Positions 4,260-29,047 of a stretch of DNA of 32,728 bases are shown here, piece after piece. The translations under genes and the position numbers were made by a program. Under the pieces are notes generated by a model that worked only from the letters and a program-made list of their open reading frames with translations, was not told the origin of the DNA and searched no databases. Numbering within the stretch: position 1 is the first letter of the stretch; each line of letters begins with the position of its first letter. This stretch comes from Parcubacteria group bacterium GW2011_GWA2_45_30 (GTDB taxonomy: Bacteria > Patescibacteriota > Minisyncoccia > Sungbacterales > HO2-52-23): positions 1 through 32,728 of the forward strand of contig LCKU01000002.1 of assembly GCA_001001625.1 (NCBI GenBank), read 5' to 3'.

Positions 4260-4267
4260 AGTTATCA

Positions 4268-4307
4268 ACGAATAACGAATTTATTACGAATTTACGAATA
4301 AACGAAT
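4268..4307. repeat. ACGAAT short-period repeat cluster (intergenic copy)
   Basis: ACGAAT occurs five times at 4268, 4275, 4286, 4294 and 4302 (spacings 7, 11, 8, 8). The same motif and spacing recur at 12022-12045 and, reverse-complemented and in frame, inside recG (27493-27525). Confidence 0.75.
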
Positions 4308-4366
4308 TCCTTCATTGGGCTATTCTGATAGATTCAATATTCGTTAATGATCACATATATTATACC

Positions 4367-12010: not shown

Positions 12011-12078
12011 CTTTACGAAATGCGAATATCCGCGAATTTACGAATTCGTACATTCGTACTGATTGGTATTTCGTAAAG
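12011..12078. repeat. Intergenic hairpin containing a CGAAT repeat cluster and a 12-nt palindrome
   Basis: CTTTACGAAAT (12011-12021) pairs perfectly with ATTTCGTAAAG (12068-12078). Inside are GCGAAT-N4-GCGAAT-N2-ACGAAT and the palindrome TACGAATTCGTA (12039-12050). It fills the spacer between the archease-like stop and the PHP gene start. Confidence 0.75.
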
Positions 12079-22622: not shown

Positions 22623-22752
22623 ATCCATTTAGTTTTCAGACACGACTCACGCGCTCCTACGGCGCGTTCGCTAAGGGTTGGACGAAACTTTTCCGCGTCA
22701 TTGCGGAAAACCAAGCAGTTTCGTCCTCCCATTGTCTGAAAACTAAACGGAT
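22623..22752. other. 130-nt multi-stem structured intergenic element (candidate ncRNA or MITE-like repeat)
   Basis: The 20-bp closing stem ATCCATTTAGTTTTCAGACA/TGTCTGAAAACTAAACGGAT has one mismatch. Inside are the hairpin ACGCGC-TCCTACG-GCGCGT and a perfect 10-bp stem GGACGAAACT/AGTTTCGTCC enclosing TTTCCGC-GTCATT-GCGGAAA. Confidence 0.6.
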
Positions 22753-22789
22753 TCAACCGCGTGTATACTCACTTATAAATTTTCCTTTT

Positions 22790-24700: not shown

Positions 24701-26778
24701 CCTTTCGTCTAATCTCAAAATTCAACCCCACCGGAGACCAACCAGTCGCAATCGAAAAACTTGCGGCGAATTTGGATGCCGGTATACGGCACCAAACGCT
24801 TCTCGGCGTTACCGGCTCGGGAAAAACATTCACCATGGCCAATGTGATTGAACGAGTGCAGAAACCGACTCTTGTAATTTCCCATAATAAAACTCTGGCC
24901 ATGCAGCTTTACCAGGAGTTCAAAGAATTTTTCCCGGAAAACGCGGTGCACTATTTTGTTTCCTATTACGACTACTACCAGCCCGAAGCATATATTCCCC
25001 AAACCGACACCTACATCGAAAAGGACACCAAAATCAATGAAATGATTGACGCCCTGCGCCACGCCGCCACTGCATCACTCCTTACTCGGCGCGACGTAAT
25101 CATTGTCGCCTCGGTTTCCTGCATTTACGGCCTGGGCAGTCCGGAAGAATATCAAAAAGCATCTATTGAATTAAAAATGGGCCAGAAAATTTCTCGCCGC
25201 GAATTGCTTCACAATCTTGTAATGCTCCGATACGCGCGCAACCCCATTGATCCGTGCCAAGGGCATTTCCGTACCAGAGAAAATGCTATAGAAATATATC
25301 TGCCGTCTGGAGAAAATAAAATCGCGGTGGAAATCGAAAAAGGCAGAATCACGAATTTACACGAATCAAAAACAAAAACCAACGAATCGCGAAAACTTAA
25401 TCAATTTAGAGTTTATCCGGCCAAGCACTTCGTAACCCCGCAAAACAGCTTAAATCTTGCTATATCCAATATACGGCAAGAACTAAAAGAACGCCTAGCA
25501 GAGTTAAAAAAACGCGGGAAAGTGCTGGAGGCCGCGCGCCTGCGCCAGCGCACCAATTTTGATCTGGAGATGCTTGAAAAAATCGGATACATGAACGGCA
25601 TTGAAAATTATTCCCGGCAACTGGATTTCCGCAAGTCCGGAACCCCTCCACATACGCTTATTGACTACTTCAATTACGCCTTTCAGCACAGACCGTCCGA
25701 AAACTCTAAACACCGGGTGTTTTTTCGTTCAACACCCGGTGTTGACGGACAGTTTTCGGACGGTCTGTACGTATCAAAATGGCTATGCATAATTGACGAA
25801 TCGCATGTAAGCATTCCCCAAATCCGCGGGATGTATGCCGGAGACCACTCGCGCAAAGAAACTCTGATCGAATACGGGTTCCGTCTGCCCTCGGCGCTTG
25901 ATAACCGACCACTCATGTTTAAAGAATTTAACCAAAAAGTTGAACAAATTATATACGCTTCCGCAACTCCAACTGAATATGAGTTGCAGATGAGTAAACA
26001 GTCATACAGGGATCCGATCCCTGTAACACAGGGATCGGATCCATGTATTGTGGAGCAATTAATAAGGCCCACAGGAATTTTAGACCCCAGGATCGAAGTC
26101 CGACCTACAAAAAATCAGATCCACGCTGTTATAGCCGAGATTAAAAAACGGATTGCCAAAAACGAACGCTCGCTTGTTATGGCGCTAACCAAACGCCTAG
26201 CGGAAGACATTGCAGAATACCTTGAAGAGGCGGGAATAAAAGCCAAATATCTTCATTCGGAAGTAAAAACCCTGGAGAGGCCAGAAACACTAAAAAAACT
26301 CCGCACCGGAGAACATGACGTAATTGTCGGAATCAATCTGCTGCGGGAAGGGCTTGATTTACCCGAAGTTTCTTTTATCGCCATATTGGATGCCGACAAA
26401 GAAGGATTTTTGCGAAACATTACCACGCTTTTACAAATCATAGGCCGCGCCGCGCGGCACATAGACGGGAAAGTAACTCTTTATGCTGATACCATGACCG
26501 GCTCCATGCGCGCGGCAATCAATGAAACAAACCGTCGCCGCAAAATTCAGGAAGATTATAACCGAGCACACGGCATTACACCCGCGCAGATAAAAAAAGA
26601 AATAAGAAAATCGCTTCTGGAAGAAACTGCAGCAAAAGATGAATTTCCTATGCCCGATGGCCCCACAGAAAAAATTGTAAAATCCCTGGAGCGCGAAATG
26701 AAAAAGGCGTCGCGCGAAATGAATTTTGAACTGGCCGCCAAAATACGGGATCGGATAATCAGGCAAACTGATCCATAG
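24694..26778 (+). CDS. uvrB: Excinuclease ABC subunit B (UvrB) with two in-frame palindromic insertions
   Basis: Walker A GVTGSGKTFTMA, the DESHVSIPQIRGMY motif, YGFRLPSALDNRPL, helicase C-terminal motifs and a C-terminal UVR domain (EMKKASREMNFELAAKIRDRI). Confidence 0.9.
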   Translation: MSTFRLISKFNPTGDQPVAIEKLAANLDAGIRHQTLLGVTGSGKTFTMANVIERVQKPTLVISHNKTLAMQLYQEFKEFFPENAVHYFVSYYDYYQPEAYIPQTDTYIEKDTKINEMIDALRHAATASLLTRRDVIIVASVSCIYGLGSPEEYQKASIELKMGQKISRRELLHNLVMLRYARNPIDPCQGHFRTRENAIEIYLPSGENKIAVEIEKGRITNLHESKTKTNESRKLNQFRVYPAKHFVTPQNSLNLAISNIRQELKERLAELKKRGKVLEAARLRQRTNFDLEMLEKIGYMNGIENYSRQLDFRKSGTPPHTLIDYFNYAFQHRPSENSKHRVFFRSTPGVDGQFSDGLYVSKWLCIIDESHVSIPQIRGMYAGDHSRKETLIEYGFRLPSALDNRPLMFKEFNQKVEQIIYASATPTEYELQMSKQSYRDPIPVTQGSDPCIVEQLIRPTGILDPRIEVRPTKNQIHAVIAEIKKRIAKNERSLVMALTKRLAEDIAEYLEEAGIKAKYLHSEVKTLERPETLKKLRTGEHDVIVGINLLREGLDLPEVSFIAILDADKEGFLRNITTLLQIIGRAARHIDGKVTLYADTMTGSMRAAINETNRRRKIQEDYNRAHGITPAQIKKEIRKSLLEETAAKDEFPMPDGPTEKIVKSLEREMKKASREMNFELAAKIRDRIIRQTDP
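25688..25768. repeat. 81-nt double-stem palindromic element inserted in frame in uvrB
   Basis: Perfect 18-bp outer inverted repeat (25688-25705 with 25751-25768) and perfect 13-bp inner inverted repeat (25709-21 with 25731-43). Confidence 0.85.
26010..26042. repeat. 33-nt hairpin (perfect 15-bp stem) inserted in frame in uvrB
   Basis: GGATCCGATCCCTGT (26010-26024), loop AAC, then ACAGGGATCGGATCC (26028-26042). Confidence 0.8.
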
Positions 26779-29047
26779 TTTTCCAGCTTGTGCTTATACG
26801 CGATCGCATATAGAGACCCACGGGCAAGCCCGTGGTACTCCGCACCTTCCAGTAATTTTGCAAAATGCGTATATGCTTTGCAAAATTACTGGGTCTATAT
26901 AATCCCCTTTTCTCCATTTCCTCAAGTTTGCGTTTTAACTCCGGAGCGCAAGAAAGTGCTGGATCTTCACGCGCAAATTCCAACGCGGCCAAGCGCACTT
27001 CGCGCACCAAGACCGGGTCGGTGATTGCAGTAAGAGCCATATCGGACACGCCCCATTGTTCCGTGCCGAACATATTGCCCGGACCGCGGATTTTTAAATC
27101 CTGTTCTGCCAGTTCAAAACCGTTTTTGGCATCCACCACCGCGCGCAAACGACGCGTAACCATCCCGTCTTCGGTAGGAAAAAGGAAACAGTAGGACTGC
27201 TCAATACCTCTTCCGATCCTGCCACGAAACTGGTGCAATTGCGCCAGGCCGAACCGTTCCGCCCCCTCAATCATCATGATAGTGGCATTAGGTATATCCA
27301 CCCCGACTTCCACCACGGACGTTGATACTAGAATATCTATTTCTCCGCTTTTGAATTCTTTCATCACCGCTTCTTTTTCTTTGGATTTTAATTTGCCGTG
27401 AAGCATTCCTATTTTAAATTCCGGAAAAATAATTTCGGAAAGTTTTTTATATTCATCTTTTACCGCCCTCACCTCCCACGAACGAAACGCTGATTCGTTT
27501 ATTCGTTTATTCGCGCCGGATTCGCTATTAGTTAATGGTGGTTCTATACGCGGACATATCACGAAAACTTGTCTTCCTGTTCTTACTTCTGATCGAATAA
27601 GTTGGTATGTCTCATTCCGTTTCCCCGGCTCTATGATTCTCGTAATAACCCGCTTCCGCGATTTGGGCATTTCATCTAGTATGGAAAGATCGAGATCGCC
27701 ATAAATTGTAAGGGCTAGAGTTCGGGGAATTGGAGTTGCAGACATAGATAAGAAATGGGGTAACCAACCCGAATATCCACGAGCCAGGGCCGCACGTTGT
27801 GCAACACCAAATCTATGTTGTTCATCTACTATGACCAGGCCTAAATTTTTGAAGACGACATCTTTTTGTATCAAGGCATGGGTTCCAACGATGATATCAG
27901 ATCCTTCCGCAATTTTTTTAGAAGAAGTAAGTACTCCGATTTTTATATTAAACGATTTAAGAATTTTTTGCAGGGTCTCATAATGCTGATGTGCCAAAAT
28001 TTCCGTCGGTGCCATAAAAACCGTCTTAAATCCGGCTCGCGAGGCAAGTAACGCGGCCGCGGCCGCAACCACGGTCTTGCCGGATCCCACATCTCCTTCC
28101 AGCAGCCGATTCATGGGTTTTGATTTTTCTATGTCTTTTACGATCTCCCAGATAGAACGGCGCTGGGCATCGGTCAGCGCAAACGGCAGGGAATTTACGA
28201 ATTTTTTGAGGAGTTCAAGATCCAGCAGAATTTCCGGCGCTTGGTGCTGTTTTAATTCCGCGCGCGCGTGTAGGGCGCGAAGCTGAATCAAAAGCAATTC
28301 CTCAAACACGAAGCGCCGCCGCGCTTCAACCGGCTCCTTTTTGCTTTGCGGGAAATGAATTATTTTAATCGCGGCCTGTATATCTTGTAAATTATGCTTT
28401 TTTCGCAAATCGGCGGGCAGGGGATCGACAATAAATTTTCGCTGGTCAATAAATGTTTTTACTAAAAAACGGAACCAGCGCGAAGTAAGGCCGCGGGTTT
28501 CCGGATAAATTGCGACCAGTCCTCCAGTATGTATGCCGCCACCATTCGCCATTTGCCATTTGTTATTTGTTATCTTTTCATACGCCGGGCCTTGCAAATA
28601 AATTCCTTTGGGGCCGCGGGCAATTTTCCCGGACAAATTTACCACATCACCAACCCTCAAATTCCTTGCTAAAAACGGCTGGTTAAACCAAATCGCCTTA
28701 AGCGATCCGCTATCATCCGAGATTACCGCCTCCACCAGCGCCATGTGCTTGCGCGCCGTGCGATGCAGAGAAATTTTTTTAATCGCGCCGGATATGGTTA
28801 CCGTATCGCCAATTTTCACATCAGATATTTTTTGTAAATTTGAAAAGTCATCGTAACGCGCAGGAAAATGAAATAAAATATCGCGAATGGTTTTTATCCC
28901 AAGGTGTTTAAGCGCCGGAACAATCCGGCGGCTTATGCGTGGCGCATTTTCAATTGGGGTGTCTAAAAGAGACATGAGATGTCCTATTGAAGTCGGACTT
29001 CGATACTTCTCTTCCAAAGTCGATAAACCCAGAGGATGATTCAACAT
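26759..29047 (-). CDS. recG: ATP-dependent DNA helicase RecG, with in-frame repeat tracts and a C-terminal extension
   Basis: Wedge-domain region, Walker A GDVGSGKT, DEQHRFG, a helicase C domain, and KIRGPGNMFG near the end. ATG 29047 follows TAAAAT-N6, and ATG 28975 is an alternative start. The 3' end overlaps the uvrB 3' end by 20 nt. Confidence 0.85.
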   Translation of the reverse strand: MLNHPLGLSTLEEKYRSPTSIGHLMSLLDTPIENAPRISRRIVPALKHLGIKTIRDILFHFPARYDDFSNLQKISDVKIGDTVTISGAIKKISLHRTARKHMALVEAVISDDSGSLKAIWFNQPFLARNLRVGDVVNLSGKIARGPKGIYLQGPAYEKITNNKWQMANGGGIHTGGLVAIYPETRGLTSRWFRFLVKTFIDQRKFIVDPLPADLRKKHNLQDIQAAIKIIHFPQSKKEPVEARRRFVFEELLLIQLRALHARAELKQHQAPEILLDLELLKKFVNSLPFALTDAQRRSIWEIVKDIEKSKPMNRLLEGDVGSGKTVVAAAAALLASRAGFKTVFMAPTEILAHQHYETLQKILKSFNIKIGVLTSSKKIAEGSDIIVGTHALIQKDVVFKNLGLVIVDEQHRFGVAQRAALARGYSGWLPHFLSMSATPIPRTLALTIYGDLDLSILDEMPKSRKRVITRIIEPGKRNETYQLIRSEVRTGRQVFVICPRIEPPLTNSESGANKRINESAFRSWEVRAVKDEYKKLSEIIFPEFKIGMLHGKLKSKEKEAVMKEFKSGEIDILVSTSVVEVGVDIPNATIMMIEGAERFGLAQLHQFRGRIGRGIEQSYCFLFPTEDGMVTRRLRAVVDAKNGFELAEQDLKIRGPGNMFGTEQWGVSDMALTAITDPVLVREVRLAALEFAREDPALSCAPELKRKLEEMEKRGLYRPSNFAKHIRILQNYWKVRSTTGLPVGLYMRSRISTSWKTMDQFA
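26808..26903. repeat. Composite palindromic element within the recG 3' coding end
   Basis: Perfect 16-bp stem CCAGTAATTTTGCAAA (26849-64) with TTTGCAAAATTACTGG (26877-92), the hairpin CCACGGG-CAAG-CCCGTGG (26818-35), and an imperfect outer pair ATATAGAGACCC/GGGTCTATATAAT. Confidence 0.8.
27493..27525. repeat. CGAAT repeat cluster inserted in frame in recG
   Basis: ATTCG occurs at 27493, 27501, 27509 and 27520 (spacings 8, 8, 11). The reverse complement, GCGAAT-N5-GCGAAT-AA-ACGAAT-AA-ACGAAT, matches the motif and spacing of the intergenic cluster at 4275-4307. Confidence 0.75.
28543..28570. repeat. Four tandem heptamers (CATTCGC CATTTGC CATTTGT TATTTGT) inside recG
   Basis: Read directly from the sequence. 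The coding strand translates them as NNKWQMANG. Confidence 0.8.

What the first reader, a model, noticed from the sequence alone, without database searches (positions are those of the whole stretch)
27478..27530. CGAAT short-period repeat cluster shared by intergenic spacers and the recG coding sequence
On the recG coding strand, 27525-27493 reads GCGAAT-CCGGC-GCGAAT-AA-ACGAAT-AA-ACGAAT. The intergenic cluster at 4275-4307 reads ACGAAT-TTATT-ACGAAT-TT-ACGAAT-AA-ACGAAT, with the same motif and the same 11/8/8 spacing. A third copy (GCGAAT-ATCC-GCGAAT-TT-ACGAAT) lies in the hairpin at 12011-12078.

In recG the cluster encodes TNSESGANKRINES, in a region where other RecG proteins are about 12 residues shorter (from memory).

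A looser cluster, ACGAAT-N4-ACGAAT-N16-ACGAAT, lies in uvrB at 25361-25398.

The same ~35-nt element therefore appears in non-coding spacers and in frame in a repair helicase.
Basis: partly seen in the sequence, partly recalled or inferred. Interest (0 to 1): 0.6.

Follow-up and report, generated by a model that had tools for sequence, protein, structure and literature searches.

The report
Dispersed hexamer-array repeat inside recG
The CGAAT cluster in recG is one arm of a small palindromic repeat that is scattered between genes in this tiny groundwater bacterium and its relatives. The repeat has been absorbed in frame into a floppy loop of the repair helicase, and the same repeat arms flank a family of small nuclease genes (GxxExxY) that may be what spreads them.

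Summary
The genome (Candidatus Sungbacteria, 760 kb) has 21 clusters of at least 3 RCGAAT hexamers, against 0.3 expected. Eighteen are intergenic. Every mixed cluster runs direct-then-inverted.

They form two classes of 60-90-nt palindromes with fixed hexamer spacing (7, 10-11, 8, 8). The recG site (27493-27536, minus strand) is one class-B arm. A profile built from 18 intergenic arms hits it at E = 5.5e-7. It encodes residues 506-519, a low-confidence coil.

It is not a private insertion. The loop has similar length in all Parcubacteria RecG. The same arm sits in the same frame in at least six other lineages. There, synonymous-codon identity is 0.88, against 0.40-0.52 in flanking sequence.

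A second arm lies in frame in fpg (+9 aa, this genus only). The uvrB cluster is not significant.

The elements behave like REP, MITE or RPE repeats:
- copy number ranges from 0 to 104 matches per genome;
- some copies are near-identical;
- the dnaE insertion is lineage-specific.

Y1 transposases do not track them. Stand-alone GxxExxY PD-(D/E)XK nuclease genes are flanked by the same convergent arms across the class.

Verdict: a new variant of a known kind. This scan has reported in-frame repeats in CPR repair genes before, on other DNA.

The parts
27493..27536 (-). In-frame class-B arm in recG. It reads ATTA (for ATCA), ACTAAT (a decayed hexamer), then GCGAAT, GCGAAT, ACGAAT, ACGAAT at spacing 7/11/8/8. 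It encodes residues about 505-519 (LTNSESGANKRINES) of the 762-aa ORF.
   Evidence: Sequence. nhmmer profile of 18 intergenic arms: E = 5.5e-7, 28.4 bits, fourth-best hit in the genome. No hairpin potential: z = +0.42. Residues 507-514 have pLDDT below 50, and 499-517 are coil.
26759..29047 (-). recG (762-aa ORF; the public gene call is 718 aa). The arm lies between the DEAD domain (aa 297-444) and the Helicase_C domain (aa 533-613).
4264..4351 (.). Intergenic class-B element. The left arm is intact: ATCA plus five ACGAAT at 4268, 4275, 4286, 4294 and 4302. The right arm is decayed: ATTCTG, ATTCAA, ATTCGT, TAATGAT. It lies between the stop of an RNase J-like gene (4367) and the start of a LOG/TIGR00725-like gene.
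   Evidence: E = 1.4e-10. Folds with z = -3.4.
12011..12078 (.). Intergenic class-A element: CTTTACGAAATGCGAAT-N4-GCGAAT-N2-ACGAATTCGT...TATTTCGTAAAG. On the minus strand it starts directly after the stop of the archease-like gene. It ends 3 nt before the ATG (12007) of a PHP-domain gene.
   Evidence: RNA fold -28.9 kcal/mol, z = -7.0. The same element sits at the orthologous site in the congener G001.
25351..25387 (+). Loose cluster of three ACGAAT in a variable uvrB loop (spacing 10 and 21). Membership in the family is not shown.
   Evidence: nhmmer E = 5.9. Loop length is 56 aa against 57-60 in relatives. G023 has five hexamers in the same loop, and G022 shares ACGAATCAAAA.

Best explanation
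The recG cluster is one arm of a dispersed palindromic repeat family. Each arm is a fixed array of RCGAAT hexamers. Class B reads ATCA-RCGAAT-N1-RCGAAT-N5-RCGAAT-N2-ACGAAT(-N2-ACGAAT). Two arms face each other around a short loop.

The family has multiplied in intergenic DNA of Sungbacteria and many other members of the class. Occasionally a copy has become fixed in frame in permissive, disordered loops of proteins (recG and fpg here). There it is translated as a low-complexity peptide and tolerated, as Rickettsia palindromic elements and intragenic REPs are.

The short ORF-less palindromes are, I infer, the MITE-like derivatives or empty sites of cassettes. In those cassettes the same two arms enclose a small GxxExxY PD-(D/E)XK nuclease gene (TIGR04256/PF13366). 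I infer that this nuclease is the trans-acting protein that recognises the hexamer arrays and propagates or maintains them.

Shown:
- family membership of the recG site;
- in-frame position in a low-confidence loop;
- sharing by divergent RecG lineages;
- DNA-level conservation of the hexamers;
- repeat-like dynamics;
- physical flanking of GxxExxY genes by the arms.

Inferred:
- that GxxExxY binds or cuts the arrays;
- the route by which the arm entered recG;
- that it has no role in RecG function.
For: Clustering is far beyond chance: 21 clusters against 0.30 expected, with all 15 orientation switches convergent. Eighteen of 21 clusters are intergenic in a genome that is 88% coding.

The two classes have conserved termini that were not part of the search pattern: 17 of 18 arms are preceded by ATCA and one by ATCT. 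The recG site scores E = 5.5e-7 against the arm profile. Full elements fold with z from -3.4 to -9.6 (-6 to -9.6 for the four with both arms intact), whereas the recG arm gives z = +0.4.

The same arm sits in the same frame in recG of G001, G009 and four metagenomic homologs. It is decayed in a fifth homolog, P0006. The encoded residues are a coil with pLDDT below 50.

The fpg arm adds 9 aa in this genus only. The stretch from MPELPEVE to R.GK is 59-60 aa in 11 of the 16 genomes read.

Repeat-like dynamics:
- 0-104 triple-hexamer matches per genome among 41 relatives and 201 class members.
- Only about 8 of 52 G001 clusters sit at sites where G000 also has one.
- Some copies are near-identical, loops included.
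- The class-A element between the TGnTATAAT box and the ATG of dnaE occurs only in this genus.

GxxExxY link:
- 9 of 20 stand-alone PF13366 ORFs among relatives have at least 2 RCGAAT upstream and at least 2 ATTCGY downstream.
- 9 of 12 more from other families of the class show the same.
- Chance expectation is about 1e-4 per gene.
- Array counts correlate with PF13366 counts: Spearman 0.51. Fisher odds ratios are 4-10, with p between 6e-5 and 2e-3, although related genomes are not independent.
- In other classes of the phylum, about 10 of 29 GxxExxY genes are flanked by convergent arrays of other motifs, including ACAGAT, TACGGA and TTGATT.
Against: - No GxxExxY gene or remnant was found in this genome, which is 72% complete.
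- 9 of 21 array-rich genomes of the class lack a detectable PF13366 gene, and 18 of 48 PF13366-positive genomes lack RCGAAT arrays.
- No target-site duplication was seen.
- No nuclease of this family is known to mobilise DNA, and the library search found nothing on it.
- The arm-bearing RecG loops are no longer than arm-free loops. This is not a plain insertion.
- The hexamers in recG are conserved far above the synonymous background across lineages only 52-68% identical in protein (0.88 against 0.40-0.52). A tolerated relic does not predict this. It needs either selection on the DNA or repeated rewriting.
- Array-bearing RecGs lie in at least two well-separated clades.
Confidence: 0.68

Rival explanations
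1. The arrays are operator sites for a conserved host transcription factor that oligomerises on short repeats, as RHH proteins do (MetJ on 8-bp metboxes, omega on 7-bp heptads). This factor would control a regulon of replication, repair and division genes. The recG and fpg copies would be intragenic sites kept by selection.
For: The hexamer and its spacing are conserved class-wide. Class-A elements end 2-4 nt before start codons. Start-adjacent genes include dnaE, recR, smc, mreB, ftsZ, rsmH and nusG. Synonymous-site conservation is confined to the recG array. There is no sense/antisense folding bias, which points to DNA rather than RNA.
Against: - The site upstream of dnaE is present only in this genus.
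- Most sites differ between two species of one genus.
- Counts range from 0 to 104 per genome, and 13 of 41 relatives have none.
- Some copies are near-identical, loops included.
- Other genera carry unrelated palindromes at the same places.
- The fpg arm decays differently in G000 and G001.
- The arms enclose GxxExxY genes.
Confidence: 0.14
2. The elements act as RNA. They would be intercistronic hairpins that stabilise or process polycistronic mRNA, or couple translation of neighbouring genes. The recG copy would be an inert fragment.
For: Full elements form very stable hairpins. They sit exactly between a stop codon and the next start codon of co-directional genes. The dnaE copy lies downstream of a promoter-like TGnTATAAT box, so it should be transcribed.
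Against: - There is no folding advantage of the sense strand: sense is more stable in 16 cases and antisense in 23, p = 0.30.
- Spacers are not complementary, while the hexamer sequence is fixed.
- Single arms that cannot fold are common and are conserved in recG.
- No Rfam family matches in the window.
Confidence: 0.1
3. The recG cluster arose locally by replication slippage in a low-complexity loop. It would resemble the intergenic clusters only by chance.
For: AAACGAAT is tandemly repeated 2.6 times. The same loop holds unrelated 7-nt tandem repeats in G002, G029, G023 and G010. The nearby CPRIE motif can itself be encoded with GCGAAT (G022).
Against: - The profile match is E = 5.5e-7 and includes the terminus and the 7/11/8/8 spacing.
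- Seven lineages share the full class-B architecture.
- Clusters of at least 4 hexamers never appeared in simulations.
Confidence: 0.03

Closest known systems
Rickettsia palindromic elements (RPE-1 and others; Ogata et al. 2000, cited from memory) and intragenic REPs (Di Nocera et al. 2013, PMC3733652)
   Same: Both are short palindromic repeats that are mostly intergenic. Some copies are fixed in frame in known proteins, often DNA synthesis and repair genes such as uvrA and uvrB. They add a short peptide in loops or linkers.
   Different: The sequence family and host phylum differ. The arms here are arrays of a 6-nt motif at fixed spacing, not a simple stem. The recG copy is a single arm with no hairpin. 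It is shared by divergent lineages, with DNA-level conservation.
REP elements and REPtrons (RAYT Y1 transposase flanked by REPs)
   Same: The logic is the same: a small gene flanked by inverted copies of a repeat, which also occurs in many ORF-less copies between co-directional genes. Copy number varies greatly between relatives.
   Different: There is no GTAG or CGTC tag. PF01797 genes do not track the arrays (Spearman 0.01). The flanked gene is a PD-(D/E)XK GxxExxY nuclease, not an HUH transposase.
MITEs (for example Correia elements, and QMITEs of Coxiella; PMC5896051)
   Same: Both are non-coding elements under 100 nt with inverted ends. Both insert next to genes and sometimes give in-frame fusions.
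   Different: No target-site duplication was found. No DDE transposase partner was identified.
Operator and centromere arrays of ribbon-helix-helix proteins (MetJ metboxes, omega heptads, ParG and ParR iterons; from memory)
   Same: Both consist of very short motifs repeated at 7-11-bp spacing, in direct and convergent orientation, and read by cooperating small proteins.
   Different: No such protein is identified here. The sites are not conserved at orthologous genes between genera.
Free-standing homing endonuclease genes of the PD-(D/E)XK type (from memory)
   Same: Both involve a small nuclease gene with patchy presence at conserved sites. The GxxExxY cassette lies between rpsG and fusA in four families. 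GxxExxY domains are inserted in frame in RecG.
   Different: No cleavage activity or homing site is known for GxxExxY. The ORF-less palindromes are far more numerous than the genes.

Membership tests
RCGAAT-array palindromic elements of this genome (class B) | Arm architecture: ATCA, then four or five RCGAAT hexamers at spacing 7/11/8(/8). | tested here: met
   The recG site matches the profile of 18 intergenic arms at E = 5.5e-7. The first hexamer and the terminus are each decayed by one base.
RCGAAT-array palindromic elements of this genome (class B) | A second, inverted arm that gives a hairpin. | tested here: not met
   The recG arm has only a weak TTCGTT remnant downstream. The fold gives z = +0.42. 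It is a half element.
REP (GTAG/CGTC super-families) with RAYT | A GTAG or CGTC tetranucleotide tag at one end of a 20-40-bp stem-loop. | tested here: not met
   The termini are CTTTACGAAATA (class A) and ATCARCGAAT (class B).
REP (GTAG/CGTC super-families) with RAYT | Association with a Y1 (RAYT) transposase. | tested here: not met
   PF01797 is absent from the array-richest genomes G001 and G034 and present in array-free ones. Spearman 0.01.
MITE | Terminal inverted repeats, small size and no ORF. | tested here: met
   The elements are 60-90 nt with inverted arms.
MITE | Target-site duplication. | tested here: not met
   No duplication was seen at five filled sites that I inspected.
MITE | An autonomous partner with the same ends. 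| tested here: inconclusive
   GxxExxY genes carry the same arms, but this protein is not a known transposase.
Rickettsia palindromic elements | Sequence membership in an RPE family. | not tested
   No RPE sequences were compared. The resemblance is in behaviour only.
Rickettsia palindromic elements | An in-frame copy in a known protein at a surface or disordered site. | tested here: met
   recG residues 506-519 are coil, and 507-514 have pLDDT below 50. fpg is 9 aa longer than in relatives.
Transcription-factor operator array | Conservation of the site at orthologous genes across genera. | tested here: not met
   Class A lies upstream of dnaE only in G000 and G001, among the 25 genomes whose dnaE upstream region could be read.
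Transcription-factor operator array | A cognate DNA-binding protein. | not testable with these tools
   This needs binding assays.

The most novel reading that the evidence does not exclude
GxxExxY proteins (TIGR04256, function unknown) would be sequence-specific nucleases that recognise arrays of a cassette-specific hexamer on both flanks. They would copy or maintain these arrays, making this an undescribed type of bacterial mobile or self-maintaining element across Patescibacteria. The recG and fpg arms would stay intact across lineages because they are still live substrates or binding sites, not dead relics.
Probability: 0.33. Interest if true: 0.75.

Novelty: new variant of a known kind. 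Interest (0 to 1): 0.55.

Why it matters
Ultra-small CPR genomes are usually described as streamlined. This one and its relatives instead carry several proliferating repeat families that reach into essential repair genes.

The finding gives a defined, class-wide element with a simple architecture. It also gives a concrete candidate partner, the GxxExxY nuclease family, which is widespread and has no assigned function. That makes a bench test straightforward.

The sharp, array-limited conservation of synonymous sites in recG is a clean case of DNA-level constraint inside a coding loop, and it needs an explanation.

For annotation, these arrays explain odd low-complexity inserts in RecG and Fpg, and probably in MurF.

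Tried and rejected
- Y1/RAYT transposase as the mobiliser: no association.
- LexA/SOS-box reading: the dyad spacing is variable (-2 to +6) and the literature search gave nothing relevant.
- Intrinsic terminator: the T run lies 5' of the hairpin and A's lie 3' of it on both strands.
- Sense-strand RNA structure: no folding bias.
- Extra DNA-level constraint read from the G000-G001 pair alone: uninformative, because the whole neighbourhood of recG is unusually similar between these two genomes. I replaced it with a five-lineage test.
- Single origin of the recG arm: the tree leaves it open. My label regex also failed, so the groups were read off the printed tree by eye.
- A GxxExxY remnant in this genome: none found by tblastn.
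- Rfam: only two tRNAs in the window.
- PDB sequence search for GxxExxY: no hit.
- Literature on ACGAAT arrays and on GxxExxY: nothing relevant.
- My first simulation script timed out, and I rewrote it.
Full report
**Observation.**
- On the recG coding strand: ACTAAT-A-GCGAAT-CCGGC-GCGAAT-AA-ACGAAT-AA-ACGAAT (27532 down to 27493).
- The spacer at 4268-4307 has five ACGAAT at spacing 7/11/8/8.
- 12011-12078 is a hairpin-forming element.
- uvrB has three ACGAAT at 25351-25387.

Single hexamers are not enriched in the window (31 against 25.8 expected). The signal lies in the clustering.

**The genome and the statistics.** The window is contig C2 of a 760-kb, 56-contig, 45% G+C genome, 72% complete. 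Its RecG relatives are named Candidatus Sungbacteria, of the Parcubacteria.
- Genome-wide there are 21 clusters of at least 3 RCGAAT/ATTCGY hexamers and 17 of at least 4.
- Thirty third-order Markov simulations gave means of 0.30 and 0.00.
- Eighteen of the 21 clusters are intergenic, although about 88% of the genome is coding by my rough ORF call.
- All 15 changes of orientation inside clusters run RCGAAT and then ATTCGY. None runs the other way.

**Anatomy.** Aligned by eye and by pattern, the clusters fall mainly into two classes.
- Class A: CTTTACGAAATA-CGAAT-N4-ACGAAT-N2-ACGAAT, a loop, then the mirror image ending TATTTCGTAAAG.
- Class B: ATCA-RCGAAT-N1-RCGAAT-N5-RCGAAT-N2-ACGAAT(-N2-ACGAAT), a loop, then the mirror image ending TGAT.

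Seventeen of the 18 class-B arms picked by a hexamer-only pattern are preceded by ATCA and one by ATCT, neither of which was in the pattern. Spacers between hexamers differ between the two arms of one element, while the hexamers and their spacing are kept.

Four full elements with both arms intact fold as long hairpins (-27 to -34 kcal/mol, z -6 to -9.6). The 4264-4351 element, whose right arm has decayed, gives -20 kcal/mol and z -3.4. There is no advantage of the sense strand over the antisense strand (16 against 23, p = 0.30). That argues against selection on a sense RNA.

Class-A elements begin at or right after the upstream stop codon. They end 2-4 nt before the next ATG.

**The recG site.** A profile of the 18 intergenic arms hits window 27531-27500 (minus strand) at E = 5.5e-7. 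This is the fourth-best hit in the genome and the best that was not used to build the profile. It is a single arm and does not fold (z = +0.42). It encodes residues 506-519, between the DEAD and Helicase_C domains. In an AlphaFold model (mean pLDDT 80.5), residues 499-517 are coil and 507-514 fall below pLDDT 50.

**RecG relatives.** In 120 homologs, the stretch between CPRIE and EVKAVKEEY is variable in sequence and of similar length everywhere. The arm is therefore not a private 12-residue insertion.

DNA from relatives shows the same class-B arm, with its ATCA terminus, in the same frame in these sources:
- G001 (same genus);
- G009 (another genus, six hexamers);
- the contigs encoding P0093, P0005, P0032 and P0004.

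P0006 has a decayed copy with the same spacing.

Amino-acid differences between these loops fall in the spacers and leave the hexamers intact. Examples are K/L/M/I before R, I/M after it, and N/S/G before E.

Synonymous-codon identity at conserved residues is 0.88 in the array and 0.43 in the rest of recG. No other block of nine conserved columns exceeds 0.68. With five lineages only 52-68% identical in protein, the values are:
- 0.88 in the array;
- 0.40 in the 40 columns upstream;
- 0.52 in the 40 columns downstream.

The excess is therefore confined to the array and is not a transferred segment.

On a RecG tree the array-bearing proteins lie in at least four places. One of these is a clade separated from the others by fully supported branches. 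One old origin with many losses, or repeated acquisition, both remain possible.

**Other coding copies.**
- *fpg/mutM* (G000 C41 7493-8314) carries a class-B arm in a different frame in G000 and G001. The stretch from MPELPEVE to R.GK is 69 aa there and 59-60 aa in 11 of the 16 genomes where it could be read. G006, G004 and G003 have other insertions at the same loop, clearly palindromic in G006 and G004. The two congeners have lost different hexamers. This is a clear filled-versus-empty comparison, and it shows decay.
- *murF* has four hexamers in frame (not followed up).
- *uvrB*: the cluster scores E = 5.9 and adds no length compared with 27 relatives. G023 has five hexamers in the same loop. 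I treat it as unproven.

**Dynamics.**
- The triple-hexamer pattern occurs in 28 of 41 relatives and 75 of 201 genomes sampled across the class. Counts range from 0 to 104. The reversed control is almost always 0.
- Between G000 and G001, about eight sites are shared: dnaE, mraZ-rsmH, PHP, NYN, M50 peptidase, rpsH, sodN and HIT. Most are not shared.
- Some copies within G001 are near-identical, loops included.
- Upstream of dnaE, the class-A element lies between a TGnTATAAT box and the ATG in G000 and G001 only. Most other genera have a TATAAT- or TATGAT-like box 6-8 nt before the ATG and no element.
- At other orthologous sites, G000 has different repeat families.

This is the behaviour of proliferating repeats, not of a conserved regulon.

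**The partner.** Y1 (RAYT-type) transposase genes are common but do not track the arrays.

In G001, a class-A element encloses a 133-aa ORF. It is a GxxExxY protein: TIGR04256 at 1e-29 and PF13366, of the PD-(D/E)XK superfamily, at 3e-30.
- Among relatives, 9 of 20 stand-alone PF13366 ORFs have at least two RCGAAT upstream and at least two ATTCGY downstream. Most of the rest have partial arms, or arms built from other motifs such as RCGGAT, ACGAAA and ACGCAA.
- Nine of twelve further cassettes from other families of the class show the same, including perfect class-A and class-B arms.
- From the hexamer density, the chance expectation is about 1e-4 per gene.
- Array counts correlate with PF13366 counts: Spearman 0.51, with Fisher odds ratios of 4 to 10. 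Related genomes are not independent.
- In other classes of the phylum, about 10 of 29 cassettes are flanked by convergent arrays of cassette-specific motifs, including ACAGAT x4, TACGGA x3 and TTGATT x4. Controls displaced by 700 nt rarely show this.
- The class-B cassette lies between rpsG and fusA in four families.

This genome itself has no GxxExxY gene or remnant in its 72%.

**Reading.** The recG cluster is a half copy of this element family, held in frame in a disordered loop. In behaviour the family is close to RPEs, intragenic REPs and MITEs. Those are known to sit in repair genes (PMC3733652; PMC5896051).

It differs from them in three ways:
- the arms are hexamer arrays;
- there is no link to RAYT;
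- the arms enclose GxxExxY nuclease genes.

I infer that GxxExxY is the protein that reads the arrays. Nothing here shows binding or cutting.

The strong, array-limited synonymous conservation in recG is not predicted by a tolerated relic and remains unexplained. Selection on a DNA site, or repeated rewriting from other copies, would both fit.

**Earlier notes.** Earlier notes of this scan report other palindromic repeats in frame in uvrB, uvrC, ruvA and the recG tail of this genome, and in uvrC of another CPR genome. My results agree with that picture, but I did not re-test those sites.

Noticed in passing
window 22640-22780; also G000 C13 ~1060-1130, C30 6550-6700, C3 46750-46950: A second, unrelated repeat family: a roughly 170-nt palindrome starting tttcagacaatgggaggacg and ending cgtgtctgaaa. 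It sits in intergenic spacers, one of them upstream of mraZ. No Rfam family matches at gathering score.
   Followed up: no
window 26759-26900 (RecG residues 716-762): The C-terminal tail of the recG ORF has pLDDT below 50. Parts of it recur elsewhere in the genome (C30:1-108 at 92% identity, and C32:2603-2668). It therefore looks repeat-encoded. The public gene call is 718 aa, not 762.
   Followed up: partly
L161 (G022:C6), L163 (G024:C87), L164 (G009:C90), L153 (G010:C39), L146 (G030:C6), L143 (G034:C8); proteins P0004, P0009, P0015, P0016, P0020, P0089: A whole GxxExxY PD-(D/E)XK domain is inserted in frame in RecG between helicase motifs II and III in several relatives. It lies about 100 residues before the array loop. 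The same domain also sits inside other 630-890-aa ORFs.
   Followed up: partly
L027, L014, L016, L030 (RecG loop); L116, L118, L122, L133 (UvrB loop): The same variable loops of RecG and UvrB hold tandem repeats of 7-8 nt in other genomes. Examples are AGGAATC x4, GGAAATG x5, AATTTCC x3, and CTACAA(A/G)C arrays shared by several genera. These periods are not multiples of three.
   Followed up: no
L063-L092 (dnaE upstream regions): In many relatives a TATAAT- or TATGAT-like box lies 6-8 nt before the dnaE ATG. This suggests leaderless or near-leaderless transcripts in this clade.
   Followed up: no
G000 C41 7493-8314 (fpg); L096 (G006), L100 (G004): The Fpg loop after residue about 35 has been hit by three different palindromic repeats in three genera. 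It is a shared permissive site.
   Followed up: partly
G000 C30 2774-2813 (murF): Four GCGAAT/ACGAAT hexamers at spacing 12/10/12 lie in frame in murF. They encode a hydrophobic stretch, VFAWIFVLIRTLIRMIF.
   Followed up: no
L166 (G001), L150 (G029), L176 (G218), L172 (G080): A GxxExxY cassette with class-B arms lies between rpsG (ending ANKAFAHFAW) and fusA in four different families of the class. In G080 two elements are nested.
   Followed up: partly
G000 C43 400-560: Upstream of groES there is a CIRCE-like inverted repeat (TTAGCAGTC-N9-GAGTGCTAA). It is followed by a palindromic array of CACGAACAG/CTGTTCG motifs, another array-type element.
   Followed up: no
G000 C30 6113-6508: A class-A element sits between mraZ and rsmH, not upstream of mraZ. 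G001 has the same arrangement.
   Followed up: partly
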